A stretch of 64,000 nucleotides of DNA from Candidatus Eiseniibacteriota bacterium (lineage in GTDB: Bacteria; Eisenbacteria; RBG-16-71-46; JABDJR01), in assembly GCA_963762255.1 (NCBI GenBank), contig CAVXKA010000002.1:912628-976627 (forward strand), written 5' to 3'. This document shows, in pieces, positions 5,094 through 54,448 of this stretch. The notes beneath the pieces are model-generated. The model ran no database searches. It was not told the DNA's origin and saw only the letters and a list, made by a program, of their open reading frames with translations. A program made the translations under genes and the position numbers. How positions within the stretch are numbered: the stretch's first letter is position 1; every line of letters starts with the position of its first letter.

Positions 5094-5716
5094 CGCGCCT
5101 CCCGGAGCATGCTCCGCACTTTGGTCACAAGGAGATCGACGGCGACTCGGTTTCGCCCACCCTCGGGAATGATGATGTCGGCGTAGCGCTTGGAAGGTTC
5201 GATGAACTGGAGATGCATCGGGCGCACGCTCTCTTCGTACTGTTGGAGGATCGATTCCAGGCTTCTCCCCCGCTCCATCGTGTCCCGGCGGATGCGCCGG
5301 ATGAGCCGCACGTCGGGGTCGGTGTCGATGAACACCTTGATGTCCATGAGCTTTCGGAGCGCGGGATCCTCCAACACGAGGATCCCCTCCAGCATGATGA
5401 CGCGGTGCCCCTCCACGCGCACCGTCTCCGGCAGGCGGGAGTGGTGGGTGAAATCGTACGTGGGCTTCTCGATCGGCTGGCCGCGCAGGAGCGCCTCCAT
5501 GTGATCGAGGAGAAGCTCGCGGTCGAAAGCGTCGGGATGGTCGAAGTTGAGCTTCGCCCGCTCTTCTATGGTGAGGCCGGCGAAGTCCTTGTAGTAGGAA
5601 TCCTGCTCGATCATCACGACCTCTCGCGAACCCAGGTTCTCGATGAGGGTGGATGTGACGAGGGACTTCCCGGAAGCGGAGCCGCCGGCGATGCCGAGAA
5701 GAAGGGGCCCTTCCAT
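5090..5716 (-). CDS. udk: Uridine kinase
   Basis: 208 aa. P-loop GIAGGSASGKSLV and an ...IEQDSYYKD... uridine/cytidine kinase signature. Confidence 0.85.
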   Translation of the reverse strand: MEGPLLLGIAGGSASGKSLVTSTLIENLGSREVVMIEQDSYYKDFAGLTIEERAKLNFDHPDAFDRELLLDHMEALLRGQPIEKPTYDFTHHSRLPETVRVEGHRVIMLEGILVLEDPALRKLMDIKVFIDTDPDVRLIRRIRRDTMERGRSLESILQQYEESVRPMHLQFIEPSKRYADIIIPEGGRNRVAVDLLVTKVRSMLREAR

Positions 5717-5735
5717 GACGTCCTGTCCTGCTTTC

Positions 5736-6872
5736 CTAGAAATGATCCCGCGGCGGGACGAACTCCGGGCCGAAGGACCGGCCGATGAGTCCGTCCAGCT
5801 CGTCCAGGACCTGCGTAAGGAGCGCCACCTTGCGCCGCAGCGGAAGGAAGGCGCTCTTGAATCCGTTGAGCACGAGCTTGCGCACGTCCGCGACCCCCAG
5901 CCCGAACGCCTCGACGGCCTTGCGGTACTCGCGGGTAATGTCGGTGTCGCTCATGAGGGTGTTGTCCGTGTTGAGAGTCACCCGGAGCCCCGAATCGTAA
6001 TACAACCGGAACGGATGGTCCTCAAGGCGCTCCACCACCGCGGTCTGGAGATTGGAAGTGAGGCAGATCTCCAGAGGGATGCGGTGGTTGTTCACGTAGG
6101 CCATGAGGTCGGGATCCTCGTGCAGCCGCGTGCCGTGCCCTATGCGATGCGCCCCCAGCGCGTGCAGAGCCTGGTGGATGCTCGCCGGACCGTAGCCCTC
6201 TCCGGCGTGGCACGTGCAGTTGATGTTGTTCTTGAGGATCTTGTAGAAAGCGCTTCCGTGCTCCTTGGCCGGGTAGTTGAACTCGGCGCCGGCGAGATCG
6301 AACCCCACCACCCCGCTCTTCTTGTACTCGACGCATAGGTCGGCGAGGGCAAGGCTCTTGGCGGGAGACATGCTGCGGATGCTGCAGATGATGACGCCGG
6401 TCAGCACCCCCGTCGCCCGCGTTGCCTCATCGAGGCCGGCCAGCACCGAGTCCAGGATCTCCTGCATGGAGTGTCCCTTGAGTTCGTGAAGGATGGGCGA
6501 GAACCGCACCTCGATGTACCGCACGTTCTCCCGCGCGGCATCCTCCACCAGCTCGCGCGCCACGCGCCGCATGGCGCCCGGCTCCTGCAGCACGGAGAGC
6601 GTGTGCTGGAACGCGTCCAGGTACTCCTCCAACGACTCGCAGGCGTCCCCGCACACGAGGCGGCGGCGCAGCTCCGGCTCCGTCTCGCGGGCCAGGTCGA
6701 GGCTCTGGTCGCGGGCCAGCTCGCGAACGGTGTCGAGACGGACCGAGCCGTCGAGATGGATGTGAAGATCGGTCTTGGGGATCTCCCGAAGGAAGCTCGG
6801 GTGGGAGAGGATCATGGCGGTTTCGCGGCTCCGCTCCCCGGGACCGCTCCGCCCCAGCTCCGGCGCGCTCAT
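5736..6872 (-). CDS. add: Adenosine deaminase
   Basis: 378 aa. PKTDLHIHLDGS and metal-dependent hydrolase motifs (HAGE, SxNTDD-like LNTDNTL) typical of Add. Confidence 0.85.
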   Translation of the reverse strand: MSAPELGRSGPGERSRETAMILSHPSFLREIPKTDLHIHLDGSVRLDTVRELARDQSLDLARETEPELRRRLVCGDACESLEEYLDAFQHTLSVLQEPGAMRRVARELVEDAARENVRYIEVRFSPILHELKGHSMQEILDSVLAGLDEATRATGVLTGVIICSIRSMSPAKSLALADLCVEYKKSGVVGFDLAGAEFNYPAKEHGSAFYKILKNNINCTCHAGEGYGPASIHQALHALGAHRIGHGTRLHEDPDLMAYVNNHRIPLEICLTSNLQTAVVERLEDHPFRLYYDSGLRVTLNTDNTLMSDTDITREYRKAVEAFGLGVADVRKLVLNGFKSAFLPLRRKVALLTQVLDELDGLIGRSFGPEFVPPRDHF

Positions 6873-8171
6873 CTAGCGGATCTCCGCCCGCGAGAGAAGA
6901 TCGCGGATCGCTTGCGCTGGCCGCCGCAGGTATTCCTCGGGGTCGAGGTGTGGAAGGCGCCCGCTCGCGACACGGATCTCGCCGTCCACGACCACCCAGC
7001 GCACGGCGTCGCGCGCCGCGGCGTAGACGATCCGGTCGTAGACCGATACGCCGGGGCCGCCGAAGGTCTGCGGACGGTCGAGGTCGAGCACGACCACATC
7101 GCCGGCCTTTCCCGCCTCGAGGCTTCCGATCGCGTCATCCCATCCCACCGCCCGCGCGCCATCGATCGTGGCCATCTCGAGTGCGGCCATCGCGGAGAGA
7201 CTTCCCGGACCGCCCTTCAGGCCTTGCAACAGCGCGGCGAGGCGCATCTCCTCCAGCACGTCCATGTCGTTATTGCAGGGGGCGCCGTCGCAGCCGATGC
7301 CCACCGAGAGGTTGTCCTGCGCGCGCAGGAACGGCAGGTCGGCCACGCCGGATCCCAGCTTCAAGTTGGCCGTCGGGCAGTGCGCGATCTTGAGCGGTCG
7401 TCCGCCCAGCGTCTCCAACTCGGGCTCGCGAAGCCACACCGCGTGGGCGGCGCGCAAGTCAACGTCGAGCACGCCGGTCGTGCTCAGGAACTCCATCTGC
7501 CCCGTGCCCAGCGACGCCCGCACCGCCGCTTCCTCGGCTTCGCTCTCGAGAAGGTGCGTGTGTACGGGCGCGTCCAGCTCCGCGGCCAGGGCGGCGGTGC
7601 GCTCCCAGAGCGCGCGCGAGCAGGAAAGCACGAAGCGCGGGCAGAGGGCGCCGCGGATCCTTCCGTCGGCCTCTCCGTGCCAGCGGCGATACAGATCGCC
7701 CGCCTCCTCGATCGCCCGGTCCGGATCTTCGAGGAGCGCGCTCGGCGCGCCCTCGCCGGTATCCATCAGACACTTCCCCGCCACCGCGCGCAGGCCGGAG
7801 TCGCGGATCGCGCGAAAGATTCCCTCCATGCCGCGCACCAGGCCGAACTCCTGGATCGTGGTGGTGCCGGAGAGAAGACAGTCGGCCGCTCCAAGAAGCC
7901 CGGATGCGTACGCGGTGTCGTCGGTGTGCGCCGCCTCCAGCGGCCAGATGCGTTCGCGGAGCCAGCTCAGAAGCGGGCGGTCCTCGGCGAGGCCGCGAAA
8001 GAGGGCCTGACCGAGATGCACGTGCGCCTGGATGAACCCGGGCAGGACGAAGAGGCCCTGGGCCTCCAGGAGCCGCGTGGCAGGCGGCGGGACGATGCCG
8101 GGGCCGAGCGCAACGATGCGACCGTCGGTGATGAGGAGATCGCCTTCCAGCACGCGCCGCCCGGGGTCCAT
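6873..8171 (-). CDS. Amidohydrolase (COG0402-like nucleobase/nucleoside deaminase: guanine deaminase, MtaD or 8-oxoguanine deaminase-like)
   Basis: The homologous region starts ...LLIRGGTLVTMDPGRRVLEGDLLITDGRIVALG...LPGFIQAHVHLGQALFRG...HLLESEAE...HCPTANLKLGSG...GCDGAPCNNDMD.... The ATG at 8171 (MDPGRR) is the first Met. The true start is probably a non-ATG codon about 8198 (LLIRGG). The track ORF N-terminus up to 8957 is spurious and overlaps hpt. Confidence 0.7.
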   Translation of the reverse strand: MDPGRRVLEGDLLITDGRIVALGPGIVPPPATRLLEAQGLFVLPGFIQAHVHLGQALFRGLAEDRPLLSWLRERIWPLEAAHTDDTAYASGLLGAADCLLSGTTTIQEFGLVRGMEGIFRAIRDSGLRAVAGKCLMDTGEGAPSALLEDPDRAIEEAGDLYRRWHGEADGRIRGALCPRFVLSCSRALWERTAALAAELDAPVHTHLLESEAEEAAVRASLGTGQMEFLSTTGVLDVDLRAAHAVWLREPELETLGGRPLKIAHCPTANLKLGSGVADLPFLRAQDNLSVGIGCDGAPCNNDMDVLEEMRLAALLQGLKGGPGSLSAMAALEMATIDGARAVGWDDAIGSLEAGKAGDVVVLDLDRPQTFGGPGVSVYDRIVYAAARDAVRWVVVDGEIRVASGRLPHLDPEEYLRRPAQAIRDLLSRAEIR

Positions 8172-8224
8172 CGTGACCAGGGTGCCGCCGCGGATCAGGA
8201 GATGGCGATGGGACCGGGGCAGGG

Positions 8225-8755
8225 TCACGGCTGGCGGTAGACCTCTTCTTTGAGCACGCCGATGTAAGGCAGGTTCCGGTAGAGCTGGTTGTAGTCGAGC
8301 CCGTAGCCCACCACGAATTCGTTGGGACACTCGAAGCCGACGTACTTCACCGGCACTTCCTCGGCGCGAGCCTCGCGCTTGTCGAGCAGCGCGCAGATCT
8401 CCACCGACTTGGGATGGCGGGTGTAGAGGTTGTCGAGGAGATAGCGCGCGGTGAGGCCGGTGTCGATGATGTCCTCGACGATCAGGACGTGCCGTCCGTC
8501 GATGGGCTGGTTCAGATCCTTGAGGATGCGCACGACTCCCGAGGAGTGGGTGCCGCCGCCGTACGAGGAGACCGACATGAAGTCGACCTCGAGGTGGGTG
8601 TTCATCGAACGCACCAGGTCCGCCATGTAGGGAAAGCACCCGTTCAGGATGCCGACCATCAGAACGCGCCGGTCCGCGTAGTCGCGAGCGACCTCCGCAC
8701 CCATGGCCTGAACCTTGGCCCGGACTTGTTCCTCGCTGAAGAGAACCTCTCGCAT
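8225..8755 (-). CDS. hpt: Hypoxanthine-guanine phosphoribosyltransferase
   Basis: 176 aa from the internal Met (MREVLFSEEQVRAKVQ...). PRPP-binding VLIVEDIIDTGLT motif. The upstream 210 aa of the track ORF are Arg-rich junk. Confidence 0.85.
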   Translation of the reverse strand: MREVLFSEEQVRAKVQAMGAEVARDYADRRVLMVGILNGCFPYMADLVRSMNTHLEVDFMSVSSYGGGTHSSGVVRILKDLNQPIDGRHVLIVEDIIDTGLTARYLLDNLYTRHPKSVEICALLDKREARAEEVPVKYVGFECPNEFVVGYGLDYNQLYRNLPYIGVLKEEVYRQP

Positions 8756-8992
8756 GTCCGCACCGATACCGTTTTCCCAAGATTTCATGCTGTGGCGATT
8801 CCCCTCTCTCCCGCTGGTTATGGTGCTCCCGGTGGCTTGTCGAGATGCGCGAGGCCGGAGCCCGGGAGGTAGGACCGATCGGCGAGCATTCTGCCGCGTC
8901 CGCCCCCGGGAGGCAAGGCGCGAAACCGGGACACGCGGCGCCGCTCGGGGGTACCATGCGTGGAAGCTTCGGGCCGAAGGAGGGATGCGTTT

Positions 8993-9880: not shown

Positions 9881-9929
9881 CGGAGCGCAGCCGGCCGAAA
9901 TCTTGGCCGGGCCTTCCCTGGATCCAGGG

Positions 9930-10397
9930 TCAGGGCGCGAGCAGGCGGCGAAGCAACCGAATCTGTCCGGCGTGGTAGGTCAGATGGGTCAGGAGCCGAA
10001 GGATGTAGGCCTGCACGGTGGCGCCGCCGGGCCATCCCTCCGCCGGCGCGGGCCCACCGAGGGCTCGCGGGTCCATCGTGAGGACCGCGGTCCGCGTCTC
10101 GACGCACGCTTCGTCCCACATCGCGAGCACATCCGCCTTCGACGCCCAGGGCTCGGCGGCGAACTCGCGATCGCGTTCGCGCGCGTAGTCGCTGCCGTAG
10201 AGAAGATGGCCGAAGAAGTGCCGGAGGTTGCCGACGAGATGGAGCGCGAGGTTGCCCGGCGAGACCGCGCCCGGCACCGGGCGCTCCCAGAGACGCGCCT
10301 CGGGGACCGCCTCCAGGTCCTCACGCACCGAGACGTGGTAGCGCTCCACCAGATCGGCGACGGTGTTGAGGAACTCCTGCTCCTGGCTCTCGACCAT
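9930..10397 (-). CDS. DinB/DUF664-family (DinB_2-like) four-helix-bundle protein, last gene of the BMC operon
   Basis: 155 aa from MVESQEQEFLNTVADLVERYH.... HxxxH-type DinB motifs (LALHLVGNLRHFFGHLL; THLTYHAGQI). The start lies 1 nt after the stop of the upstream BMC-P gene. Confidence 0.6.
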   Translation of the reverse strand: MVESQEQEFLNTVADLVERYHVSVREDLEAVPEARLWERPVPGAVSPGNLALHLVGNLRHFFGHLLYGSDYARERDREFAAEPWASKADVLAMWDEACVETRTAVLTMDPRALGGPAPAEGWPGGATVQAYILRLLTHLTYHAGQIRLLRRLLAP

Positions 10398-10398
10398 G

Positions 10399-10671
10399 TC
10401 AGATCCCCATGTGGACTTCGTCCACGACGCCAACGATGACGGCCCGCACCGGCGCGTTCGGGTCACCGACCACCTGGCGGGCGGAGTTGCCCTCGTCGAT
10501 CAGGAGCACCAGCTCGCCGGCGCCCGCGTCGACGGAGTCGAGCGCGATCACGTAGCGCCCGTCCGGCGCGAGCTTCTCGTCCAGGCGATCCACCAGCAGC
10601 ATGCGTCGCCCCTGATAGAACGGGTGCTGGATCGTGGAGACGACGGTGCCGGTTACTCTGCCGAGGAACAT
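10399..10671 (-). CDS. BMC vertex protein (BMC-P, EutN/CcmL/PduN family), copy 1
   Basis: 91 aa. MFLGRVTGTVVSTIQHPFYQGRRMLLVD...AGAGELVLLIDEGNSARQVVG...VRAVIVGVVDEVHMGI, a canonical EutN/CcmL fold sequence. Confidence 0.8.
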   Translation of the reverse strand: MFLGRVTGTVVSTIQHPFYQGRRMLLVDRLDEKLAPDGRYVIALDSVDAGAGELVLLIDEGNSARQVVGDPNAPVRAVIVGVVDEVHMGI

Positions 10672-10709
10672 CGCGAGGTCCCTCCGTCCGGCGACGCGAA
10701 CACGTTCAC

Positions 10710-10979
10710 CTACTGGTCGCTCACGTCGTCGGCGATGCCGACGATGGCGTGGTCCACGGGCACGAAGGTCTCGGGCAACGCCATCGCGGCCTCGCGCCCG
10801 CCGATGAAATAGACGAGCTCGCCGGGACCGGCCTGCCCGGTGGCGTCGGCGCACACCAGCGGATCGCCCGCGCTCTTCATCTTGCGGTCGAGCGGCTCCA
10901 CCATCAGGAGCTTCACCCCTTCGAGCCCTTCGCTCTTGACCGTCGCCACCAGCGTGCCGCGCACCCGCCCGAGTTGCAT
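10710..10979 (-). CDS. BMC vertex protein (BMC-P), copy 2
   Basis: 89 aa. MQLGRVRGTLVATVKSEGLEGVKLLMVEPLD...GELVYFIGGREAAMA.... Its ATG overlaps the stop of the upstream BMC-T (ATGA). Confidence 0.8.
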   Translation of the reverse strand: MQLGRVRGTLVATVKSEGLEGVKLLMVEPLDRKMKSAGDPLVCADATGQAGPGELVYFIGGREAAMALPETFVPVDHAIVGIADDVSDQ

Positions 10980-11605
10980 CAGCCTTCGCCCTGGTTCCAC
11001 TGGGCCGCGAAACGCGTCCCGCCGAAGATGTTCTCGGCCAGTTCGGTATGGAGCCGCGGAATCACAACTTTCTGCACGAGGTTGCCGCTCTCGATCGCGG
11101 AAACGCCGAATTCCACCGCGGCCTCCACGTCGGCCTGCTCGCCGGCAAAGAGCAGAAGCGCCTTCCCGCCCAGACCGTTGGCGAGACGAAGCTCCACCAG
11201 CGCCACCTGCGCCCCCTTCATACCGGCATCGGCGGCGCGGATCGCGCTCACCGTGGTGCGCGTCTCGATCACGCCGAGCGTGTCGATGGGATCCTTCGAG
11301 CGCTGACCGGCGATGGCGTTGCCCACTGCGGGGTGGATGTCGGGAAGGAACAGGCGATCGATGAGCGCGGGCGCGCCCGCCTCCACTCCGGCAGCGAGCG
11401 ATTCCTCGACGCTGGCCACGTCGCCGTCCACCAGCACCAGGTACTTGCCCGGATGAACGCTCCCCGCCACCAGCGCCCGCACCGGCGCCTTCTTCACCAT
11501 CGCGTCGGCCGCTCGCATGCCGAGCGCGATGCTCGAGAACTCGAGGAGTCCGAGCGCGGGCACAGTCACCCCGGGAGCGAGGTCGGCGGCTTCGATCGAG
11601 TCCAT
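10979..11605 (-). CDS. BMC-T shell protein (tandem BMC-domain pseudohexamer)
   Basis: 208 aa with two BMC domains (ALGLLEFSSIALGMRAADAMVKKAPV... and TLGVIETRTTVSAIRAADAGMKGAQVALVE...). Confidence 0.75.
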   Translation of the reverse strand: MDSIEAADLAPGVTVPALGLLEFSSIALGMRAADAMVKKAPVRALVAGSVHPGKYLVLVDGDVASVEESLAAGVEAGAPALIDRLFLPDIHPAVGNAIAGQRSKDPIDTLGVIETRTTVSAIRAADAGMKGAQVALVELRLANGLGGKALLLFAGEQADVEAAVEFGVSAIESGNLVQKVVIPRLHTELAENIFGGTRFAAQWNQGEG

Positions 11606-11615
11606 CGTCCCTTTC

Positions 11616-13052
11616 CTACACGATCCGGAAGCGGTCCACGAGGACGCACCGCCGCCAGCGGGTGAAACTGCGAGCGCGGGTCATTCCCTCGCCGGTGGGG
11701 CTCGCGATCGAGAACGAGGTGAACCCCTCGCCGCCCGCGCCCAGCCCGGCCAGCGACGAGCCGTTCTTGACGAAGATCGAGCAGTCCATGACCCGGGCCA
11801 TGCGGCTCAGGGCATCCACGTTCCGCGAGTGCATGACCGCGGTGTGGCGGAAGCCGTGCTCGGCGGCCTTGGCCAGATCGATAGCCGCGTTCACGTCGCG
11901 CACGCGCACCAGCGGCATGACCGGCATCATCTGCTCGGTCCAGACCAGCGGATGATCCTCGGGGACTTCCACCAGGATCATGCGCACGTCGTCGCCCACC
12001 GTGATCCCCATCTCCTTGAGAATGACGGCGGGGATCTTTCCGATGAAGTTCTTGTTGATCACGCCGTGCTGGCGCGGCCCGCGCATCTCGGTGAAGATCG
12101 TCTTCTCGAGCTTCCCGAGCTGCCAGGCGGTGAGTTCCACCGCGCCGGCGGCGATCATCGCCTTCTTCAGGCGATCCGCCACCGCGTCCACGCAGATCAC
12201 TTCCTTCTCCGTGGTGCAGACGATCTGGTTGTCGAAGGATCCGCCTTTGACGATGTCGCGACCGGCGCGCTCGAAGTCGGCGGTCTCGTCCACCACCACC
12301 GGCGGATTACCAGGGCCCGCGCAGATGGCGCGCTTGCCGCTGCCCATCGCCTCTTTCACCACGCCGGGACCGCCGGTGACGACCAGCAGGTTGACCAGCT
12401 TGTGGCGCATGAGTTCCTGCGCGCTCTCGATCGTGGGATTGGCCACACACGTGACGAGGTTGGGCGGCCCGCCCGCGGCGGTGATCGCCTGATTGATGAG
12501 CTGCACCGTCTTGGCCGAGCAGTTCTTGGCGTTGGGATGGGCGTTGAAGACGGCCGCGTTCCCCGCCGAGAGCATCCCGATCGCGTTGTTGATGATGGTG
12601 GCGGTGGGGTTGGTGGTCGGTGTGATCGCGCCCACCACGCCGAAGGGCGCAAGCTCCAGAAGCGTGAGCCCGTGGTCGCCGGTGGTGACCAGTGGTTCGA
12701 GATCCTCGGGCCCCGGGCTCTTGTTGATGACGAGAAGGTTCTTCTCGACCTTGTCCTCGTAGCGGCCGAGCCCGGTCTCCTCGCGCGCCATCCAGGAGAG
12801 CAGCTCCGCGTTGTGACGCAGCACGACCCGCATCTGGGCGATGATGTCGTAGCGCAGGGCGAGGCTCGACTCACAAAGCAAGCGCTGCGCTTCCTTGGCC
12901 GCGGTGACCGCGCTCTCCACGCCGGCGAAGATGCCGTCGCTCCCGGGCGCCGGGGGCGGCGGGAGCGGCTTCCCCTCGGGGGTGTGGCCCGACTTCATCG
13001 AGCCCAACACATCCTGCACCGTGCGGCTGATCTCCTCGCGGGAGATGCTCAT
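11616..13052 (-). CDS. CoA-acylating aldehyde dehydrogenase (PduP/EutE-like metabolosome signature enzyme) with an N-terminal encapsulation-peptide-like helix
   Basis: 478 aa. ALDH fold with a catalytic Cys region (...NQIVCTTEKEVI...) and PduP/EutE-like layout. The N-terminus ISREEISRTVQDVLGSM (amphipathic) is followed by a Pro-rich linker GKPLPPPPAPGSDG. Confidence 0.8.
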   Translation of the reverse strand: MSISREEISRTVQDVLGSMKSGHTPEGKPLPPPPAPGSDGIFAGVESAVTAAKEAQRLLCESSLALRYDIIAQMRVVLRHNAELLSWMAREETGLGRYEDKVEKNLLVINKSPGPEDLEPLVTTGDHGLTLLELAPFGVVGAITPTTNPTATIINNAIGMLSAGNAAVFNAHPNAKNCSAKTVQLINQAITAAGGPPNLVTCVANPTIESAQELMRHKLVNLLVVTGGPGVVKEAMGSGKRAICAGPGNPPVVVDETADFERAGRDIVKGGSFDNQIVCTTEKEVICVDAVADRLKKAMIAAGAVELTAWQLGKLEKTIFTEMRGPRQHGVINKNFIGKIPAVILKEMGITVGDDVRMILVEVPEDHPLVWTEQMMPVMPLVRVRDVNAAIDLAKAAEHGFRHTAVMHSRNVDALSRMARVMDCSIFVKNGSSLAGLGAGGEGFTSFSIASPTGEGMTRARSFTRWRRCVLVDRFRIV

Positions 13053-13067
13053 CCGCCTCTCCTTCCC

Positions 13068-13364
13068 TTACTCATTCGACTTGTCGTAGACACGGCGATC
13101 GTCCAGCTCCCAGGTGTCCACGATCGCCATCACGACGGCGTCGCAGGGACGGTCCTTGGTGGACTGGGTCTGGCGCGCACTGGAGCCGGTGGCGAAGAGG
13201 ACGACTTCGCCGACCCCCGCCCCCACTGCATCGCTCGCCACCACGAAGCTGCCGGTCTCCTTGGCTTCCGCGGTGAGCTGGCGCAGGAGCAGGAACTTGA
13301 GTCCCTCCATGCTCTCTTCCTTGCGCGAGGCCACCACGGTGCCGACCACCCGGGCCAGTAGCAT
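13068..13364 (-). CDS. BMC vertex protein (BMC-P), copy 3
   Basis: 98 aa. [30 protein letters not shown]...[14 protein letters not shown].... Confidence 0.8.
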
Positions 13365-13421
13365 GAGCTTTCCTCCGCGGACGGGGCCGGGACGCGTGCC
13401 CCGACCCCGTTCGGAAGTGCG

Positions 13422-13733
13422 TTACTTGCCGCCCATCTCGGCGCGGGCTTCCTTGCTCCGGCCGAGAGGCAGCGCGATGTCCACGTTGACGTGCGGCCGC
13501 GGAATGGTGTGCGTGCTCACCACCTCGCCCACCTTCTCCGCCCCACGCTTGCCGGCATCCACCGCCGCTTTCACCGCGGCCACGTCGCCGCGGACGATGA
13601 CCGTCACATAGCCCCCGCCGATCTTCTCGTAGGCGACCAACTCCACCTTCGCCGCCTTCACCATGGCGTCGGCGGCTTCCACCGTCGCGGCGAATCCGCG
13701 GGTTTCGATCATGCCCAGCGCTTCTGCCATCAC
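13422..13733 (-). CDS. BMC-H hexamer shell protein (PduA/EutM-like)
   Basis: 103 aa. [81 protein letters not shown], a near-canonical Pfam00936 sequence. Confidence 0.9.
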
Positions 13734-13824
13734 GTCCTCCGTTGCTTCGGGTTATGCGGCCGGGGAGGCGCCTTCGTCGGGCTTCACGGCCCGCGCGTGC
13801 CCCGTCCGGTCTTCTGAAATCGTT

Positions 13825-14454
13825 CTAGGACTCCCGCCCGGTCAACTCCGCGATCGCGGCCTCGGCGGCGCGGTACCCGACGTCGATGTCGCGCTCCTCA
13901 CCGCCGAGATAGATGCGGCCGAACGAACCGAACGCGCGCACATCGAGAATGTTGATGTGCGCCGCCTTCTCCGCCTCGTTGGCGGCGAGCGCCGCGTAGG
14001 CCGCGGGCTCCAGCTCCATGACGTATAGGCTATGCCCCGGCACCAGCATGTTGCCGTGGCGCATCCGGTTGATGAGCTGGGCCTGGAGCGGATCCACGAG
14101 GCGGATCACCTGGCTCGAGAGGACGCGCGGCTTGCGCCGGTCGCTCTCGGTGAGACCGCACGCATCGAGGATCGCCTGCCCCGCCTGGCGCACTTCGCCC
14201 TGCGATTCGGAGTGAACCTCGAGAAGGCCGTACAGGCGCTCGACGATCTGCATGCCGGGAAAAACGTTGGTGCTCTTCACCGCGATGTCGGTGATGCGGT
14301 TGATCTCGATGCCGGGTGAGATCTCCACGTACAGGCACGCTTGGCCGGGCAGCGGCAGGAACCCTCCCGCCACCGTGCCCAGGAACGCCGCGTGCTGCGG
14401 CTGCAAGCTGTCGAGAAACACGTAGGAGCGCAGGTCGATCTGCGTTTTCGCCAT
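13825..14454 (-). CDS. BMC-T shell protein, permuted tandem type (PduB/EutL-like)
   Basis: 209 aa from [31 protein letters not shown].... Two permuted BMC repeats. The ATG overlaps the deoC stop (ATGA). The track ORF N-terminus up to 15306 is Arg-rich junk. Confidence 0.7.
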
Positions 14455-15488
14455 CAGTAAGGACCTTTCGTTTGCGGGGAGTCGACGGCCTCGCCGCGCG
14501 ACTCCTTCACGATGCGCACCCCCGCCGAGGCGCCGATGCGGGTCGCCCCCGCCTCGATCATCCCCAGCGCATCGGCATAGCTCCGAATGCCGCCCGCGGC
14601 CTTCACCCCCATTTCGGGGCCCACCGTGGCGCGCATGATGGCCACGTCGCGGATGGTCGCCCCCCCTGAGGCGAATCCGGTGGAGGTCTTCACGAAATCC
14701 GCGCGCGCGCGCTTGGCGAGAAGGCAGGCCACGACCTTTTCCTCGTCGGTGAGGAGGGCGGCTTCGATGATCACCTTCACGATCACGTTCGATTCGTGGC
14801 AGGCGGCGGTGACCTCGGCGATGTCTTCCTCCACCAGATCGTAGTTCCCGCTCTTGAGCGCGCCCACGTTGATGACCATGTCCACCTCGCGCGCGCCCTC
14901 GCGGATCGCCTTGCGCGACTCGAAAGCCTTGGTGGCGGGAGTGGTGGCGCCGAGCGGGAAGCCGACCACGGTGCAGACCTTGGCGTCGCTCCCTCGCAAG
15001 AGCTGCGCGCAGAGTCGCACGAAGCTTGGGTTGACGCACACCGAGGCGAAGTGGTTGCGCGCCGCTTCCTCGCAGAGCTTCTGAATCTCCGCTTCGGTGG
15101 CGTCGGGCTTGAGCATGGTGTGGTCGATGTAGCTGGCGATGTCGTGGGCCACCGCGCCGCTTCCGCCGCCGGAGCCGATACGCGACGCGCCGGCGGCCAC
15201 AAAGCTTCGCACCGTCTCCGGGCTGCGCTGCGCGGGGTTCGTGCTGCGCGCGCGGTCTTCGGAGTCTGCGGAGCTGGCGTGACGGATGGCGGGTCGCTCG
15301 TAGCACGGCTCGTAGGAGCGGCGGTAGGCCTCGGTGACCGCGGGGCCCTTGGGTGCCGACCCGGCGGGCGAGGACGGCTTGCTTGCTGCAGGCGCTTCCG
15401 CCGTTGGCGGCGCCGCGGCGGCCGGCCCCTGCAGCCGGGCCAGCACCTCGCGGGTGATCCGCTCGATGAGGGCATCGCGCTCGTTCAT
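14454..15488 (-). CDS. deoC: Deoxyribose-phosphate aldolase with an N-terminal encapsulation peptide and long Ala/Pro/Ser linker
   Basis: 344 aa from [22 protein letters not shown] (amphipathic helix), then an ~80-aa low-complexity linker ([28 protein letters not shown]...). The DeoC TIM-barrel follows: ...[15 protein letters not shown]...VCVNPSFV...[10 protein letters not shown]...FVKTSTGF...[21 protein letters not shown]. The ATG overlaps the rpiB stop. Confidence 0.85.
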
Positions 15489-16045
15489 CGCGCTCCCGCT
15501 CCCGCCCCGTCCAGGGCGTCGATCTTGGCCACCCGCTTCAAGTGGCGCTCTTCCGTGCAGGCGGTCGCAAGAAAGGTCTTCACGATCGCGCGGGCGAGCA
15601 CGACGCCGATCAATCCCGCTCCCAGCGTGACCACGTTGGCGTTGTTGTGCTCGCGCGCGTTGGCGGCGGTGGAGAGGTCGTAGCAGAGCGCGGCCCGCGC
15701 GCCCGGAATCTTGTTGGCGGCCATGCAGGATCCGATGCCGGCGCCGTCGATCATGATCCCGAACTCGGCGCGCCCATCGACGACCGCGCGCGCGACCGCC
15801 GCCGCGAAGTCGGGATAGTCCACCGCGTCGGTGGAGTGCGTGCCGAGGTCGACCGGTTCCCACCCGATCGTCGGGAGGAATCGCTTGAGATCTTCCTTGA
15901 GCGGAAAGCCGCCGTGGTCGGCGCCGATCGCCACTCGGCGCGCCGCGACCGCACCGGGATTCGCGAGCGATGCGTCGACGACGCGCTCCACCACCGTGCG
16001 CACGAGATTCTCAAGCTCTCGATCGTGCAAGCCGCCGTCCTCCAT
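15485..16045 (-). CDS. rpiB: Ribose-5-phosphate isomerase B with an N-terminal encapsulation-peptide-like extension
   Basis: 186 aa. About 35-aa extension ([20 protein letters not shown]) before the RpiB/LacAB core [16 protein letters not shown]...[23 protein letters not shown].... Confidence 0.8.
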
Positions 16046-16060
16046 TCGCTTCGAGCCGCC

Positions 16061-16089
16061 TTGCCTCGAAGTCGGGGCGCGATGATACT
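16061..16089 (+). promoter_or_regulatory. Candidate sigma70-like promoter for tag in the 79-nt divergent intergenic region (TTGCCT-N17-GATACT). The BMC operon promoter must also lie in this gap.
   Basis: It is the only intergenic gap between the divergently transcribed rpiB (BMC operon) and tag. A GGAGGAA RBS lies 2-3 nt before the tag ATG. Confidence 0.25.
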
Positions 16090-16124
16090 ACGGGCCCCCG
16101 GAGGCGTCCACACACGGAGGAAGC

Positions 16125-17839: not shown

Positions 17840-19975
17840 TCAGGGCCGGATATCGAGCCTGATACGGGCGTCGACCGCCACGCATCCCTTGCCAACTGAT
17901 AGCACCTTTACAGGGTTCAGGTCCATCTCCGCGATCTCGGGATGATTCCCCACCAGAACGGACACACGCAGGATCGCTTCCTCCAGGGCCGGGACATCGG
18001 CCGGAGGCGCGCCGCGATAGCCGTTGAGGAGTGCATACCCCCGAACCCCCCGAACCATTTCGTCGGCGTCGCGGTCGGTGAGCGGGTGGATGCGGAAGGT
18101 CACGTCCTTCATCACTTCGACCTGCACCCCGCCGAGGCCGAACGCCACGAGCGGGCCGAACTTGGGATCCTGGGTCACGCCGACCAGAACCTCGACCCCT
18201 TCCTTCACCAGGGGCTGCACGGTGAAGCCGTGCGCCGCGCCCTCCAGGCCGCGGGTGCGCAGCGCGGCGCAGATCTCGTTCACCGCGCTCTCGACCTCCG
18301 CTTCCGTGCGCAGGTCGAGCCGCACACCGCCCACGTCGCTCTTGTGCGAGATGGAATCGGAGTGGAGCTTCACGACCACGGGGAAACCGAGGGAGCGCGC
18401 GGCGGCCGCCGCCTCCTTGGGGGTCGCGGCGAAGAGCACGGGCGGGGTGCGGATGCCGTACGCGGCCAGGACGCGGTCGACTTCGTCGGCGTTGAGCCAG
18501 CCGCCTTCATCGCCCATGCGCTCGCGCGCGGCCGCAAACACCGCGGCGGCGTCCGCCGCGCGCACGTCGTCAAAGGCGATCTCGCGACCGGGGGCCTTCG
18601 CCATCCACTGGCCGTGGCGCACCGCGCGCCCGAGCACGCGCACCGCGCTCTCGGGAAACGCATACGAGGGGATGTTTCCCTCCTTGAGCGAGCGCAGTCC
18701 TTCCGGCACGCCGTGCTTGCCGAGGAAGCAGGTGAGCACCGGCTTCTCGGTGCCTTCGGAGCCGTTCACGATCCCCCGCGCCACCTCGCGGGGCTCCGTC
18801 ACGATCGGCGGCACGAAGAGCGCGATCAAGGCGTCGATCTTCGGGTCCGCGAGCAGCGCCCGCGTGGCACGCTCGTAGTTCTGCGCGGTGGCCGAAGCGA
18901 TCATGTCCACCGGGTTGCGCACGCTCGCTTCCGGGGGAAGGAACTCGTGCAGGCGCGCCGTGGTGCTCTCGCTCAGGTCGGACACCTCCAGCCCGTGCGC
19001 CTCGCAGGCATCGGTCGCGAGGATCCCGGGACCGCCGGCGTTGGTCAGGATGGCCACGCGGCTCCCCTTCGGGATCGGCTGATACGCGAGGAACGCGGCC
19101 ATGTCGAAGAGTTCTTCCACGGTGTCGACGCGGATGATGCCGGTCTGCGCGAAGAGCGCGTCCACCGCCACGTCGGCGCCTGCCAGGGCGCCGGTGTGGC
19201 TCGTGGCCGCGGTCATGCCTCGGCGCGTGCGCCCGCTCTTTACGGCGACGATCGGCTTGCGCCGCGTGATCTCACGAGCGAGCCGCGTGAACTTGCGGGG
19301 GTTACCGAACGATTCCAGGTACAAGAGCATGACCTTGGTGCGCGGGTCGGCGTCCCACCACTGCACGAGGTCGTTGCTGGAAACGTCGGCCTTGTTCCCG
19401 ATGGAGACGAAGTCGCTGACCCCGATGTTGAAGCTGCGCGTGTAGTCGAGGATGGCCACCCCGAGCGCGCCGCTCTGGCTGGCGATGGCCACGTTGCCTT
19501 CCGGCGGATAGGTCGGGGCAAAGGTCGCGTCGAGGCGCACGTCGGGTGCGGTGCTGAGCACACCGAGGCAATTCGGCCCCACCAGGCGCATGCCGTGCGC
19601 GCGAACGATCTCCTTCAAGCGCGCTTCGCGGGCCGCGCCTTCTTCGTTGACTTCCTTGAACCCGGCCGAGATCACGACCACCCCGCGCACACCCTTCGCG
19701 GCGCAGGCTTCGACCATGGCGACGACGACCTTGGCCGGCACCACGACCACCGCGAGGTCGACCGGGCCCGGGATATCGGCGATGCTCGCGTAAGCCTTCA
19801 CCGACTGCACGAAGTCGGACTTGAGGTTGACCGGGTACACCGGCCCCTGGAAACCGTTCAAGAGCAGGTTGCGGAAGATCTCGCCGCCGATCGACCCGCG
19901 CTCGGTGGAAGCGCCGATCACCGCCACCGATCGCGGGCGCAAGAGACCCGAGAGATCCACGGCGCTCCCGCTCAC
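17840..19975 (-). CDS. Acetyl-CoA synthetase (ADP-forming) / NDP-forming acyl-CoA synthetase, fused alpha-beta
   Basis: About 711 aa from the GTG at 19975 (overlapping the usp stop). CoA-binding domain (SVAVIGASTERGSIGGEIFRNLL), succinyl-CoA-synthetase-like His region and C-terminal ATP-grasp. The upstream 197 aa of the track ORF are junk. Confidence 0.75.
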   Translation of the reverse strand: MSGSAVDLSGLLRPRSVAVIGASTERGSIGGEIFRNLLLNGFQGPVYPVNLKSDFVQSVKAYASIADIPGPVDLAVVVVPAKVVVAMVEACAAKGVRGVVVISAGFKEVNEEGAAREARLKEIVRAHGMRLVGPNCLGVLSTAPDVRLDATFAPTYPPEGNVAIASQSGALGVAILDYTRSFNIGVSDFVSIGNKADVSSNDLVQWWDADPRTKVMLLYLESFGNPRKFTRLAREITRRKPIVAVKSGRTRRGMTAATSHTGALAGADVAVDALFAQTGIIRVDTVEELFDMAAFLAYQPIPKGSRVAILTNAGGPGILATDACEAHGLEVSDLSESTTARLHEFLPPEASVRNPVDMIASATAQNYERATRALLADPKIDALIALFVPPIVTEPREVARGIVNGSEGTEKPVLTCFLGKHGVPEGLRSLKEGNIPSYAFPESAVRVLGRAVRHGQWMAKAPGREIAFDDVRAADAAAVFAAARERMGDEGGWLNADEVDRVLAAYGIRTPPVLFAATPKEAAAAARSLGFPVVVKLHSDSISHKSDVGGVRLDLRTEAEVESAVNEICAALRTRGLEGAAHGFTVQPLVKEGVEVLVGVTQDPKFGPLVAFGLGGVQVEVMKDVTFRIHPLTDRDADEMVRGVRGYALLNGYRGAPPADVPALEEAILRVSVLVGNHPEIAEMDLNPVKVLSVGKGCVAVDARIRLDIRP

Positions 19976-53387: not shown

Positions 53388-54448
<1,061 letters not shown>

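What the first reader, a model, noticed from the sequence alone, without database searches (positions are those of the whole stretch)
9930..16045. Complete, tightly packed SPU-like (sugar-phosphate utilisation) bacterial microcompartment operon
Ten co-directional genes read rpiB - deoC - BMC-T (permuted) - BMC-H - BMC-P - CoA-acylating aldehyde dehydrogenase - BMC-T (tandem) - BMC-P - BMC-P - DinB-like. Shell stoichiometry is 1 BMC-H, 2 BMC-T and 3 BMC-P. The cargo (DeoC plus RpiB plus a PduP-like dehydrogenase) matches the SPU class defined bioinformatically (Axen 2014; Sutter 2021), whose substrate and physiology remain experimentally uncharacterised. The predicted reaction is 2-deoxyribose-5-P to glyceraldehyde-3-P plus acetaldehyde (DeoC), then acetaldehyde plus CoA plus NAD+ to acetyl-CoA (the dehydrogenase). 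That is, a metabolosome confining acetaldehyde generated from the deoxyribose of DNA or nucleosides.
Basis: partly seen in the sequence, partly recalled or inferred. Interest (0 to 1): 0.85.

Follow-up and report, generated by a model that had tools for sequence, protein, structure and literature searches.

The report
Deoxyribose-phosphate microcompartment operon (SPU type)
This is an intact ten-gene operon for a protein-shelled bacterial organelle that most likely breaks down the deoxyribose of DNA or nucleosides while trapping toxic acetaldehyde; it is real, but it belongs to a widespread type that has been catalogued and partly characterised.

Summary
Window 9930-16045 (minus strand) holds ten tightly packed genes: RpiB-like, DeoC (DERA), CcmP-like BMC-Tdp, BMC-H, BMC-P, CoA-acylating aldehyde dehydrogenase, PduT-like BMC-Ts, BMC-P, BMC-P and a DinB/MST-like gene. 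DERA's three catalytic residues and the dehydrogenase's catalytic Cys are present. All three cargo proteins carry conserved N-terminal amphipathic helices that look like encapsulation peptides.

The first nine genes occur in the same order in at least 20 genomes from about seven phyla. The closest is a Candidatus Eisenbacteria MAG (70-91% amino-acid identity). The features fit SPU subtype 2 or 3.

Dwyer, Sutter and Kerfeld (2024) showed that an SPU6 DERA cleaves deoxyribose-5-phosphate. They also showed that the RpiB-like partner, with Cys66 replaced by Asp as here, binds DERA but does not isomerise ribose-5-phosphate.

New context found here:
- A five-gene purine and nucleoside operon (hpt, deaminases, udk, PNP) lies 1.2 kb downstream.
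- An ADP-forming acetyl-CoA synthetase lies upstream.
- No PduL, PduS, alcohol dehydrogenase or phosphopentomutase is encoded anywhere in the 64 kb.

DinB is specific to this lineage. Verdict: a new member of a known kind, of modest interest.

The parts
16082..16110 (-). Sigma-70-like promoter match (TGGACG-17-TATCAT), 37 nt upstream of the rpiB ATG
   Evidence: It is the only promoter-like hit in 8700-17200, where 0.5 are expected by chance. The evidence is weak but the position is right.
15485..16045 (-). RpiB-like protein (186 aa). It has an N-terminal amphipathic helix ([15 protein letters not shown]) and an unusually short linker. Cys66 is Asp and Thr68 is Ala.
   Evidence: PF02502 4.6e-50. 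PDB alignments show D in place of the catalytic C, with His99 kept. 74 of 74 homologues have Asp. The EP block is conserved across loci. The hydrophobic moment is at the 99.5th percentile.
14454..15488 (-). Deoxyribose-phosphate aldolase (DERA, 344 aa), the signature enzyme. It has a roughly 115-aa N-terminal extension: an EP helix ([16 protein letters not shown]), a long Pro/Ala linker with a lineage-specific insert, and a conserved pre-barrel segment.
   Evidence: TIGR00126 deoC, 280 bits against a 117 cut-off. PDB 5DBU E=2.2e-84 over residues 118-331, with [13 protein letters not shown] and FVKTSTGF conserved. N-terminal alignment.
13825..14454 (-). BMC-Tdp, CcmP-like tandem permuted shell trimer (209 aa)
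   Evidence: CcmP 4HT5 E=7.8e-86 over the full length. The motif that aligns with CcmP's 'IERLYG' reads VERLYG here. Pfam BMC gives only 20 bits, below the cut-off.
13422..13733 (-). BMC-H shell hexamer (103 aa)
   Evidence: PF00936 1.7e-31. Best solved relative is H. ochraceum HO-5815, E=5.8e-42, about 78% identical by count of the printed alignment.
13365..13421 (-). GC-rich 13-bp hairpin in the BMC-H/BMC-P1 spacer
   Evidence: dG -37.7 kcal/mol, z -4.0, 0 of 200 shuffles fold as well. L002 has a hairpin of different sequence at the same position. It is not universal across loci.
13068..13364 (-). BMC-P1 shell pentamer (98 aa)
   Evidence: PF03319 6e-29. 37-39% identical to P2 and P3.
11616..13052 (-). 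CoA-acylating aldehyde dehydrogenase (478 aa) with an N-terminal EP (REEISRTVQDVLGSM) and a PPPPAP linker
   Evidence: NF011927, 644 bits against a 403 cut-off. R. palustris BMC AldDH 5JFL E=1.1e-128, with the catalytic Cys aligned. EP conserved. Hydrophobic moment at the 98th percentile.
10979..11605 (-). BMC-Ts, PduT-like tandem shell trimer (208 aa). His occupies the position of the PduT Fe-S Cys38.
   Evidence: Two BMC domains, 1.8e-37. 3NWG and PduT at E about 1e-37, with 'svHpgky' aligned to 'pvCpgky'. His or Gln at this site in 22 of the 23 non-PduT sequences compared.
10710..10979 (-). BMC-P2 shell pentamer (89 aa). Its start overlaps the Ts stop.
   Evidence: PF03319 6.4e-23, with the match starting at residue 8 of the longer ORF. 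Sequence read.
10399..10671 (-). BMC-P3 shell pentamer (90 aa)
   Evidence: PF03319 1.5e-25.
9930..10397 (-). DinB/MST-like protein (155 aa). It has no linker-separated EP and starts one base after the P3 stop. It is a lineage-specific passenger of the operon.
   Evidence: PF04978 2e-14, DUF1572 and DinB_2. No NCBIfam hit. No close solved structure. A homologue is found only in L002, at 62% identity.
4230..8755 (-). Neighbouring five-gene nucleoside and purine operon. hpt 8225-8755; 5'-deoxyadenosine-deaminase-like amidohydrolase 6873-8228; adenosine deaminase 5736-6872; uridine kinase 5090-5716; purine-nucleoside phosphorylase 4230-5093.
   Evidence: Pfam. NCBIfam above the cut-off for PNP, udk, add and HGPRTase. 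Overlapping or abutting starts and stops.
17840..19975 (-). ADP-forming acetyl-CoA synthetase (NDP-forming acyl-CoA synthetase, 711 aa) with no EP; proposed cytosolic sink for acetyl-CoA
   Evidence: CoA_binding_2, Succ_CoA_lig, Ligase_CoA_2 and ATP-grasp_5 domains. TIGR02717 553 bits. The same neighbour is found in L002 (76% identity) and next to the SPU6 locus L051 (42%).

Best explanation
This is a functional operon for a sugar-phosphate-utilising (SPU) metabolosome of the nine-gene SPU2/SPU3-like architecture, probably in a Candidatus Eisenbacteria-related genome.

**Shell.** One BMC-H, a PduT-like BMC-Ts, a CcmP-like gated BMC-Tdp and three BMC-P paralogues build a shell closely related to the Haliangium ochraceum model shell.

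**Cargo.** DERA, its RpiB-like partner and a CoA-acylating aldehyde dehydrogenase are each drawn in by an N-terminal amphipathic encapsulation peptide.

**Chemistry.** 2-deoxyribose-5-phosphate enters the shell. DERA splits it into glyceraldehyde-3-phosphate, which leaves for glycolysis, and acetaldehyde. The dehydrogenase converts the acetaldehyde to acetyl-CoA plus NADH before it can escape.

**Cofactors.** No phosphotransacylase, alcohol dehydrogenase or PduS is encoded. Acetyl-CoA/CoA and NADH/NAD+ must therefore exchange with the cytosol, most plausibly through the large gated Tdp pore.

**Surrounding pathway.**
- Upstream supply probably comes from the adjacent hpt, deaminase, udk and PNP operon (nucleoside to pentose-1-P plus base).
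- A phosphopentomutase must be encoded elsewhere.
- Downstream, the neighbouring ADP-forming acetyl-CoA synthetase can turn acetyl-CoA into acetate plus ATP.

**Shown versus inferred.**
- Shown here: gene identities, catalytic residues, EP-like helices, synteny.
- Shown by others for an SPU6 homologue: DERA activity on dR5P, and the DERA-RPI complex.
- Inferred: encapsulation, fluxes, pore routes, and the link to the flanking genes.
For: **Domain and family assignments.**

**Enzymes.**
- DERA is a strong match (E=2.2e-84) to solved DERAs, and the motifs that hold the catalytic Asp and two Lys residues are kept.
- AldDH matches a BMC-associated acylating AldDH (5JFL) at E=1e-128, with the catalytic Cys aligned.

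**Shell.**
- Tdp matches CcmP at 7.8e-86.
- Ts matches PduT-class proteins at about 1e-37.
- BMC-H is about 78% identical to HO-5815.

**Encapsulation peptides.** Helix blocks are conserved across about 20 orthologous loci for RpiB, DERA and AldDH. Their hydrophobic moments lie at the 97th-99.5th percentile.

**Synteny.** The order RpiB-DERA-Tdp-H-P1-AldDH-Ts-P2-P3 recurs in Acidimicrobiia, Actinomycetota, Chloroflexota, Gemmatimonadota, Verrucomicrobiota, Acidobacteriota and Eisenbacteria.

**Operon integrity.** The ORFs are intact with a coding GC3 signature and overlapping stops and starts. The single promoter-like site lies 37 nt upstream of rpiB.

**Nucleoside context.**
- A PNP, udk, add, amidohydrolase and hpt operon lies 1.2 kb away.
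- hpt lies next to RPI/DERA pairs that have no shell gene within 10 kb in 21 acidobacterial loci, and 5'-nucleotidase genes lie there in 13-16 of them; the one pair read in full (L007) carries EPs.
- ADP-forming acetyl-CoA synthetase lies next to SPU loci in two phyla.

**Literature.** PMC11585597 for the DERA assay, the RPI Cys-to-Asp change, the complex and the subtype features. PMC8217296 for CcmP-like Tdp in SPU2/SPU3.
Against: - No phosphopentomutase or deoxyribokinase is found in the 64 kb, so the step that makes dR5P is missing locally.
- No enzyme for internal NAD+ or CoA recycling is encoded. This is unusual for classical metabolosomes and leaves cofactor handling hypothetical.
- The catalytic role of the RpiB-like protein is unknown.
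- The PNP, add and udk neighbours are not seen next to any of the other 80 loci. The comparable stretch of the one close relative (L002) is not covered by the fetched locus.
- No SPU2/3-type organelle has been purified or imaged.
- Nothing here shows expression.
Confidence: 0.85

Rival explanations
1. This is the same organelle, but the RpiB-like protein is a working enzyme or ligand-binding subunit rather than a dead scaffold. The true pathway would then start from, or also process, another sugar phosphate, or RPI would prepare or hand over dR5P (for example by furanose ring opening) for DERA.
For: - Conserved site: in 74 of 74 DERA-linked homologues from many phyla, D9, H10, Y43, H99, N100, R133 and R137 (E. 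coli numbering) are invariant.
- Uniform substitutions: the replacements are themselves invariant, with C66 to D in 74 of 74 and T68 to A in 73 of 74. Only 41 of 138 columns are this conserved, so the site is under purifying selection.
- Family precedent: RpiB-family enzymes act on other sugar phosphates, as in the NCBIfam hit to erythrulose-4-P isomerase.
- Partnership with DERA: RPI-DERA fusions and a 1:1 complex are reported in PMC11585597.
Against: - PMC11585597 found negligible R5P isomerase activity and no kinetic benefit of the complex for DERA.
- SPU5 loci lack RPI altogether.
- A 2-deoxy aldose cannot undergo enediol isomerisation.
- Conserved residues could instead serve the DERA interface or protein stability.
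Confidence: 0.2
2. The shell mainly serves a different aldehyde-generating pathway (for example ethanolamine or another acetaldehyde source encoded elsewhere), and DERA is an accessory rather than the signature enzyme.
For: - Sutter 2021 (PMC8217296) reports EUT-like satellite modules for some SPU3 and SPU6 genomes.
- The shell proteins are very close to the HO shell, whose function is unknown.
- The AldDH class also serves EUT BMCs.
Against: - DERA is the second gene of the operon and is EP-tagged.
- It is present in every related locus, in a fixed position.
- No EutBC, class-II aldolase, glycyl-radical enzyme or diol dehydratase is found in the 64 kb.
Confidence: 0.05
3. The operon is a silent or decaying horizontally acquired island with no current function.
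For: - SPU loci are spread across phyla by horizontal transfer (PMC8217296).
- In relative L002 the AldDH match is split into three pieces, which suggests frameshifts or assembly errors there.
Against: - In this window all ten ORFs are intact, with host-like GC (about 0.68) and GC3.
- Starts and stops are coupled.
- Catalytic residues are intact.
- Local synteny (USP, ACD, CHI, Tag, SPU, DinB) is shared with L002 at 59-91% identity, which indicates vertical retention.
Confidence: 0.03

Closest known systems
SPU2/SPU3 sugar-phosphate-utilising BMC loci (Sutter et al. 2021, PMC8217296; Dwyer et al. 2024, PMC11585597)
   Same: - DERA plus RpiB-like plus acylating AldDH with an N-terminal EP.
- One basal BMC-H and a BMC-P triplet.
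- A BMC-Ts plus a CcmP-like BMC-Tdp.
- No PTAC.
- The nine-gene order is identical to at least 20 loci from other phyla.
   Different: - Exact subtype (2 or 3) could not be assigned without the authors' HMM/colour catalogue.
- RPI and DERA are separate genes, not the fusion seen in 20 SPU3 loci.
- This lineage has a very short RPI linker and an extra insert of about 60 aa in the DERA linker.
- It also has a terminal DinB/MST-like gene.
- No PduS homologue is nearby.
SPU6 BMC of Chloroflexi bacterium GWB2_54_36, the only SPU enzymes tested (PMC11585597)
   Same: - DERA carries an N-terminal extension and the same catalytic triad.
- RPI has Cys66 replaced by Asp and His99 kept.
- Three BMC-P, one BMC-H and one Tdp.
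   Different: - SPU6 gene order is RpiB-DERA-P-AldDH-H-Tdp-P-P.
- Its AldDH is only about 31-34% identical to this one and carries a C-terminal EP.
- It has no BMC-Ts.
- It has a GntR/UTRA regulator upstream. None of these applies here.
Haliangium ochraceum HO BMC shell (PDB 5V74, 5DJB, 5DIH)
   Same: - BMC-H is about 78% identical.
- Tdp scores 243 bits against HO-5816.
- Ts scores 99 bits against the HO BMC-T of 5DIH.
- Both have a BMC-P triplet. The solved 6.5-MDa shell is therefore a good structural template.
   Different: - HO has three BMC-T (one Ts, two Tdp).
- Its main locus lacks DERA and RPI.
- Its function is unknown.
EUT and PDU metabolosomes
   Same: They share the logic: a signature enzyme makes a volatile, toxic aldehyde inside a shell, and an EP-tagged EutE/PduP-class acylating dehydrogenase consumes it.
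   Different: - EUT and PDU encode internal cofactor recycling (PduL/EutD, PduQ/EutG, PduS); none is encoded here.
- The substrate is a phosphorylated sugar, so one product (GAP) is also a sugar phosphate.
- A carboxysome-type gated Tdp is present.
Beta-carboxysome shell protein CcmP
   Same: The Tdp aligns over its full length with CcmP (E=7.8e-86). It keeps the ERLYG motif at the position where CcmP reads IERLYG. That this motif carries the Glu/Arg gating residues comes from my own knowledge of CcmP and CsoS1D and was not tested here.
   Different: It sits in a catabolic operon rather than a CO2-fixing one. Which metabolites pass through it is unknown.

Membership tests
SPU BMC (all subtypes) | Locus encodes a DeoC-type aldolase (pfam01791) with the DERA catalytic Asp, Lys and Lys | tested here: met
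   PF01791 1.1e-17. TIGR00126, 280 bits against a 117 cut-off. [13 protein letters not shown] and FVKTSTGF align with solved DERAs.
SPU BMC (all subtypes) | DERA carries an N-terminal extension with an amphipathic helix that is absent from non-BMC DERA | tested here: met
   About 115 residues precede the barrel; solved DERAs align only from residue 113-118 onward. The helix block is conserved in about 20 loci. Hydrophobic moment at the 97th percentile. The 3D arrangement (helix plus two strands) was not modelled.
SPU BMC (all subtypes) | CoA-acylating aldehyde dehydrogenase in the locus | tested here: met
   NF011927, 644 bits against a 403 cut-off. 5JFL E=1e-128, catalytic Cys aligned.
SPU BMC (all subtypes) | RpiB-type pfam02502 protein with the catalytic Cys replaced by Asp and His99 kept (all SPU RPIs, per PMC11585597) | tested here: met
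   '[10 protein letters not shown]' aligns with 'ILVCGSGIGM', and 'EHNNAN' with 'QHNDAN'. 74 of 74 homologues have Asp.
SPU BMC (all subtypes) | At least a triplet of divergent BMC-P genes, plus BMC-H and at least one BMC-Ts | tested here: met
   Three PF03319 proteins that are 37-39% identical to one another. One BMC-H. One PduT-like Ts.
SPU BMC (all subtypes) | Placement by the locus-type HMM and shell colour catalogue of Sutter et al. 2021 | not testable with these tools
   The catalogue HMMs and Supplementary Data are not available here, and the supplements of PMC11585597 are not held.
SPU BMC (all subtypes) | Cargo is physically encapsulated, and DERA cleaves dR5P | not testable with these tools
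   This needs expression, shell purification and an enzyme assay. Only an SPU6 homologue has been assayed (PMC11585597).
SPU2/SPU3 subtypes | CcmP-like BMC-Tdp present, N-terminal EP on AldDH, PTAC absent | tested here: met
   Tdp's best hit is CcmP, 7.8e-86 against 2.3e-58 for CsoS1D. N-terminal EP. No PF06130 anywhere in the window.
SPU6 subtype | C-terminal EP on AldDH, an EUT3-like AldDH, and no BMC-Ts | tested here: not met
   The AldDH EP is N-terminal. SPU6-order loci have an AldDH only 31-34% identical to this one. A Ts is present.
SPU5 subtype | RPI absent; CsoS1D-like Tdp | tested here: not met
   RPI is present. The Tdp is closer to CcmP than to CsoS1D.
SPU1/SPU4/SPU7 subtypes | PTAC (pfam06130) present; no BMC-Tdp | tested here: not met
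   No PTAC in 64 kb. A Tdp is present.
   No class-II aldolase domain appears in any of the roughly 60 predicted proteins of the window.

The most novel reading that the evidence does not exclude
The RpiB-like protein of SPU organelles may not be a decayed scaffold. It may be an Asp-type, ligand-binding (possibly catalytic) subunit that works with DERA, for example by binding and ring-opening the furanose form of deoxyribose-5-phosphate, or by acting on an unidentified sugar phosphate.

The support is that its whole sugar-phosphate-binding site is invariant across phyla, while the two isomerisation residues are uniformly replaced (Cys66 to Asp, Thr68 to Ala).

Together with the flanking PNP/deaminase/hpt operon and the ADP-forming acetyl-CoA synthetase, the locus would then encode a self-contained route from deoxynucleoside to ATP.
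Probability: 0.2. Interest if true: 0.6.

Novelty: new member of a known kind. Interest (0 to 1): 0.3.

Why it matters
SPU organelles are thought to let soil and sediment bacteria live on the deoxyribose of extracellular DNA, but no native SPU organelle has been studied. This locus adds a compact, intact example from a poorly known candidate phylum.

Three points of context bear on that idea:
- The organelle genes sit beside purine and nucleoside catabolism genes and an ATP-yielding acetyl-CoA synthetase. This supports the DNA-scavenging idea with genomic evidence that the published work does not mention.
- The nine-gene form encodes no cofactor-recycling enzyme, which raises the question of how NAD+ and CoA cross the shell.
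- The RpiB-like partner's binding site is strictly conserved, which questions the view that it is only a scaffold.

None of this changes the classification. The finding confirms existing knowledge more than it extends it.

Tried and rejected
- **Source contig.** An exact-sequence look-up of the AldDH found nothing on record.
- **DinB as a general SPU accessory.** Rejected. tblastn finds a homologue in only 1 of 80 related loci (L002), where a PAS-HisKA-REC hybrid kinase sits between P3 and DinB. Its amphipathic N-terminal helix is helix 1 of the DinB fold, with no linker, so it is not an EP.
- **Universal flanking accessory genes.** I clustered ORFs within 4 kb of 35 complete loci. Only lineage-specific neighbours recur: a GntR gene in SPU6, an HTH protein and a membrane protein, neither checked against Pfam, in Acidimicrobiia, and TPI in 3 loci.
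- **Satellite BMC genes and missing enzymes.** I scanned all roughly 60 predicted proteins of the window for PduL, PduS, Fe-ADH, TPI, class-II aldolase and phosphopentomutase. None was found.
- **'No-shell' RpiB/DERA pairs in Acidobacteriota as non-BMC controls.** Rejected as controls for the RpiB Asp variant. In the one locus read in full (L007) both proteins carry EPs, so these pairs are probably satellites of shells encoded elsewhere.
- **PduT-like Ts as an Fe-S electron conduit for NAD+ recycling.** Unlikely. The cluster-ligand Cys is His here, and His or Gln in 22 of the 23 non-PduT sequences compared.
- **Post-BMC-H hairpin as a universal stoichiometry element.** It is only sporadic.
- **Terminator scan.** No convincing intrinsic terminator follows DinB.
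- **Searches not run.** The large protein-database searches and structure prediction were skipped because their results could not change the verdict.

Full report
**1. Is it there?**

Yes. The region lies in a genome of about 67% GC. A GC3-based gene call recovers exactly ten co-directional minus-strand ORFs between 9930 and 16045.

Pfam assigns them as follows:

| Gene | Family | Score |
|---|---|---|
| RpiB | PF02502 | 4.6e-50 |
| DeoC | PF01791 | 1.1e-17 |
| BMC-H | PF00936 | 1.7e-31 |
| EutN/CcmL BMC-P (three genes) | PF03319 | 6e-29, 6.4e-23, 1.5e-25 |
| Aldehyde dehydrogenase | PF00171 | 5e-32 |
| Two-domain BMC protein | PF00936 | 1.8e-37 |
| MST/DUF1572/DinB_2 protein | PF04978 | 2e-14 |

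The third gene reaches only 20 bits on the Pfam BMC model, below the 24.5-bit cut-off. It aligns end to end with the beta-carboxysome shell protein CcmP (4HT5, E=7.8e-86), with HO-5816 (1.7e-71) and with CsoS1D (2.3e-58). It is therefore a genuine tandem, permuted BMC-Tdp.

Reading the sequence refines the starts:
- DERA begins at 15488, overlapping the rpiB stop (ATGA).
- Tdp begins at 14454.
- BMC-P2 begins at 10979.
- BMC-P3 begins at 10671.
- DinB begins at 10397, one base after the P3 stop.

The genes are mostly overlapping or separated by less than 40 nt. The two exceptions are the spacers that flank BMC-H.

**2. What the parts are**

*DERA.* Residues 118-331 align with solved deoxyribose-phosphate aldolases (5DBU, E=2.2e-84). 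The three catalytic positions are conserved: the Asp in EVDMVIN, the Schiff-base Lys in VKVIIE and the Lys in FVKTSTGF. NCBIfam calls it deoC at 280 bits against a 117-bit cut-off.

*Aldehyde dehydrogenase.* It matches the BMC-associated CoA-acylating enzyme of Rhodopseudomonas palustris (5JFL) at E=1e-128, with the catalytic Cys aligned. It scores 644 bits against a 403-bit cut-off on the EutE/PduP-class model.

*RpiB-like protein.* It has Asp where RpiB enzymes have the catalytic Cys, and it keeps the His of the EHN motif.

*Shell proteins.*
- The second BMC-T is PduT-like (E about 1e-37), but His replaces the Fe-S-ligand Cys.
- BMC-H is about 78% identical to the H. ochraceum shell hexamer.
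- The three BMC-P are only 37-39% identical to each other, the 'triplet' pattern.

*DinB-like protein.* It has no NCBIfam hit and no close solved structure.

**3. Encapsulation signals**

I aligned the stop-to-stop ORFs of about 20 orthologous loci. They show conserved N-terminal helix blocks, each followed by a variable linker, on three proteins:
- RpiB: here [15 protein letters not shown].
- DERA: here [16 protein letters not shown].
- AldDH: here REEISRTVQDVLGSM, followed by PPPPAP.

Their helical hydrophobic moments lie at the 97th-99.5th percentile of all 15-mers in these proteins.

This matches the published description of SPU cargo: DERA and RPI carry N-terminal extensions, and the AldDH EP is N-terminal in every subtype but SPU6 (PMC11585597). 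In this lineage the RPI linker is unusually short, and the DERA linker carries an extra conserved insert of about 60 residues.

**4. Relatives and subtype**

A scan of one genome per species found more than 589 DERA relatives, and the best 80 were fetched.

The order RpiB-DERA-Tdp-H-P1-AldDH-Ts-P2-P3 recurs in at least 20 of them. These come from Acidimicrobiia, other Actinomycetota, Chloroflexota, Gemmatimonadota, Akkermansiaceae, Holophagae, Thermoanaerobaculales and Candidatus Eisenbacteria.

The closest relatives are:
- L001, a short contig, at 80-94% identity.
- L002, a 1.9-Mb Eisenbacteria contig, at 70-91% identity. It shares the wider synteny USP, ADP-forming acetyl-CoA synthetase, chalcone-isomerase-like protein, Tag, SPU and DinB.

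The window therefore probably comes from an Eisenbacteria-related organism. This is an inference.

A second architecture, RpiB-DERA-P-AldDH-H-Tdp-P-P, has an AldDH only about 31-34% identical and a GntR gene upstream. It corresponds to the published SPU6.

Sutter et al. 2021 place CcmP-like Tdp in SPU2 and SPU3 (PMC8217296). Dwyer et al. 2024 state that PTAC marks SPU1/4/7, that RPI is absent in SPU5, and that a C-terminal AldDH EP marks SPU6 (PMC11585597). By elimination this locus is SPU2- or SPU3-like. I could not run the authors' catalogue.

**5. Literature status**

Dwyer, Sutter and Kerfeld 2024 reported four things:
- They curated 206 SPU loci.
- They showed that a truncated SPU6 DERA cleaves dR5P.
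- They showed that the RPI, with Cys66 replaced by Asp in all SPU RPIs, has negligible R5P isomerase activity.

In-vivo physiology, native organelles and every non-SPU6 subtype remain untested. No paper in the held library links Eisenbacteria to BMCs.

**6. Surroundings**

*Downstream.* One convergent alpha/beta-hydrolase gene follows the operon. Beyond it lies a tightly packed five-gene operon on the same strand as the SPU genes:

| Gene | Coordinates |
|---|---|
| hpt | 8225-8755 |
| 5'-deoxyadenosine-deaminase-like amidohydrolase | 6873-8228 |
| Adenosine deaminase | 5736-6872 |
| Uridine kinase | 5090-5716 |
| Purine-nucleoside phosphorylase | 4230-5093 |

*Upstream.*
- A divergent DNA-3-methyladenine glycosylase I gene (tag), also present in L001 and L002.
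- An ADP-forming acetyl-CoA synthetase (17840-19975) with no terminal extension.
- A homologous synthetase also sits about 1 kb upstream of the SPU6 locus L051, in Anaerolineales.

*Acidobacteriota.* Here RPI and DERA pairs occur with no shell gene within 10 kb. hpt lies beside them in 21 loci, and split 5'-nucleotidase genes in 13-16 loci. In the one such locus read in full (L007) both proteins carry EPs.

These contexts support a nucleotide and nucleoside scavenging role. Dwyer et al. mention none of these neighbours.

*Missing genes.* The remaining predicted proteins of the 64 kb include no PduL, PduS, iron alcohol dehydrogenase, TPI, class-II aldolase, phosphopentomutase or further shell genes.

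**7. Mechanism**

The best-supported reading has five steps.
1. Nucleosides are deaminated and phosphorolysed (add, amidohydrolase, PNP), and the bases are salvaged by Hpt.
2. A phosphopentomutase encoded elsewhere gives dR5P.
3. dR5P enters the shell, where the EP-anchored DERA/RPI complex splits it into GAP and acetaldehyde.
4. The EP-anchored AldDH makes acetyl-CoA and NADH.
5. With no internal recycling enzymes, cofactors must exchange through the shell. The gated Tdp pore is the proposed route for PTAC-less SPU subtypes (PMC11585597). The cytosolic ADP-forming synthetase can then yield acetate plus ATP.

Only the identities, residues and synteny are shown here. The fluxes are inferred.

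**8. The RpiB question**

Across 74 DERA-linked RpiB-like sequences:
- Asp replaces Cys66 in 74 of 74.
- Ala replaces Thr68 in 73 of 74.
- D9, H10, Y43, H99, N100, R133 and R137 (E. coli numbering) are invariant. I assign these roles from my own knowledge of the RpiB literature.
- Only 41 of 138 columns are this conserved.

This pattern points to purifying selection on a ligand-binding site rather than decay. It leaves room for a real, unidentified function beside the scaffold role that has been proposed. Against this, the published complex gave no kinetic benefit, and SPU5 lacks RPI.

**9. DinB**

The terminal DinB/MST-like gene is translationally coupled to P3. It has a homologue at the locus end only in L002, where a hybrid PAS-histidine kinase-receiver gene is inserted before it. 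It has no linker-separated EP. It is a lineage-specific passenger whose role is unknown; a thiol-dependent detoxification role is only a guess.

**10. Verdict**

This is a new member of a known, catalogued and partly characterised kind (SPU2/3-like), found in a candidate phylum that the papers I read do not mention for BMCs. Interest is modest at 0.3. The most novel reading the evidence allows concerns the conserved Asp-type RpiB partner and the flanking route from nucleoside to ATP.

Noticed in passing
window 13365-13421 (-); L002 12111-12182: A perfect 13-bp GC hairpin (dG -37.7 kcal/mol, z -4.0) sits directly after the BMC-H stop. The Eisenbacteria relative has a hairpin of different sequence at the same place. 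Several other phyla also have one, while Acidimicrobiia, with short spacers, do not. It may be an mRNA-stabilising or attenuating element that sets the ratio of BMC-H to downstream genes.
   Followed up: partly
window 15485-16045 (-) and RpiB-like genes of L001-L080: All 74 DERA-linked RpiB-like proteins have Cys66 replaced by Asp, and 73 of 74 have Thr68 replaced by Ala. They keep D9, H10, Y43, H99, N100, R133 and R137 invariant, so the binding site looks selected rather than decayed.
   Followed up: yes
window 4230-8755 (-): A tightly packed operon of hpt, a 5'-deoxyadenosine-deaminase-like amidohydrolase, adenosine deaminase, uridine kinase and purine-nucleoside phosphorylase lies 1.2 kb from the SPU operon. 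The SPU literature I read does not mention this neighbourhood.
   Followed up: partly
L004-L079 (Pyrinomonadaceae, Blastocatellia and other Acidobacteriota), e.g. L007 5410-10774: RPI and DERA genes occur with no shell gene within 10 kb, preceded by hpt (21 loci) and split 5'-nucleotidase genes (13-16 loci). In L007, the only such locus read in full, both proteins carry EPs. These look like satellite cargo loci for a shell encoded elsewhere. In L007 a Uma2-family endonuclease gene is inserted between RPI and DERA.
   Followed up: partly
window 10979-11605 (-): The PduT-like BMC-Ts has His at the position of the PduT 4Fe-4S ligand Cys38. Across related loci the residue is His (13) or Gln (9), and Cys only in a Bacillota locus. 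An Fe-S cluster at the pore is therefore unlikely.
   Followed up: yes
window 14454-15488 (-), residues about 45-100; L001, L002: The three Eisenbacteria-type DERAs share an extra conserved insert of about 60 residues in the EP linker (AYRRSYEPC...ADSEDRAR...RSPETVR) that is absent from other phyla. Their RPI linker is unusually short (about 10 aa, against 40-110 elsewhere).
   Followed up: no
L036, L037, L038, L049, L055, L069, L007 (RpiB-like N-terminal regions): In several other lineages the RPI linker contains a small conserved domain (LVT..DV..VP.GG...V..GALITPLARQ.A.ER.V) between the EP and the isomerase fold. Pfam does not recognise it, and it is absent from the window's RPI.
   Followed up: partly
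L002 12495-13927: The AldDH of the Eisenbacteria relative matches in three consecutive pieces with shifted coordinates. This suggests frameshifts or long-read assembly errors in that MAG.
   Followed up: no
L002 15125-16732: A hybrid PAS-HisKA-HATPase-receiver kinase sits between BMC-P3 and the DinB-like gene in the relative. It is absent from the window and may be a lineage-specific regulator of the operon.
   Followed up: partly
window 16125-16697 (+): A DNA-3-methyladenine glycosylase I gene (tag) is transcribed divergently from rpiB. This adjacency is kept in L001 and, more loosely, in L002. It may simply be inherited synteny.
   Followed up: partly
window 17155-17823 (-), 16694-17098 (+), 2053-3969 (-), 28737-29870 (-), 47171-51384 (+), 56344-58787 (-): A secreted chalcone-isomerase-like protein lies between the SPU operon and the acetyl-CoA synthetase. 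Several sizeable ORFs with good coding signal have no Pfam match.
   Followed up: no
window 23089-24225 (+), 35412-36017 (-), 53388-56293 (-): Elsewhere in the window there are an HNH endonuclease gene, a DprA (DNA-processing protein A) gene, and a two-subunit 2-oxoacid:ferredoxin oxidoreductase. The last suggests an anaerobic or microaerobic lifestyle.
   Followed up: no
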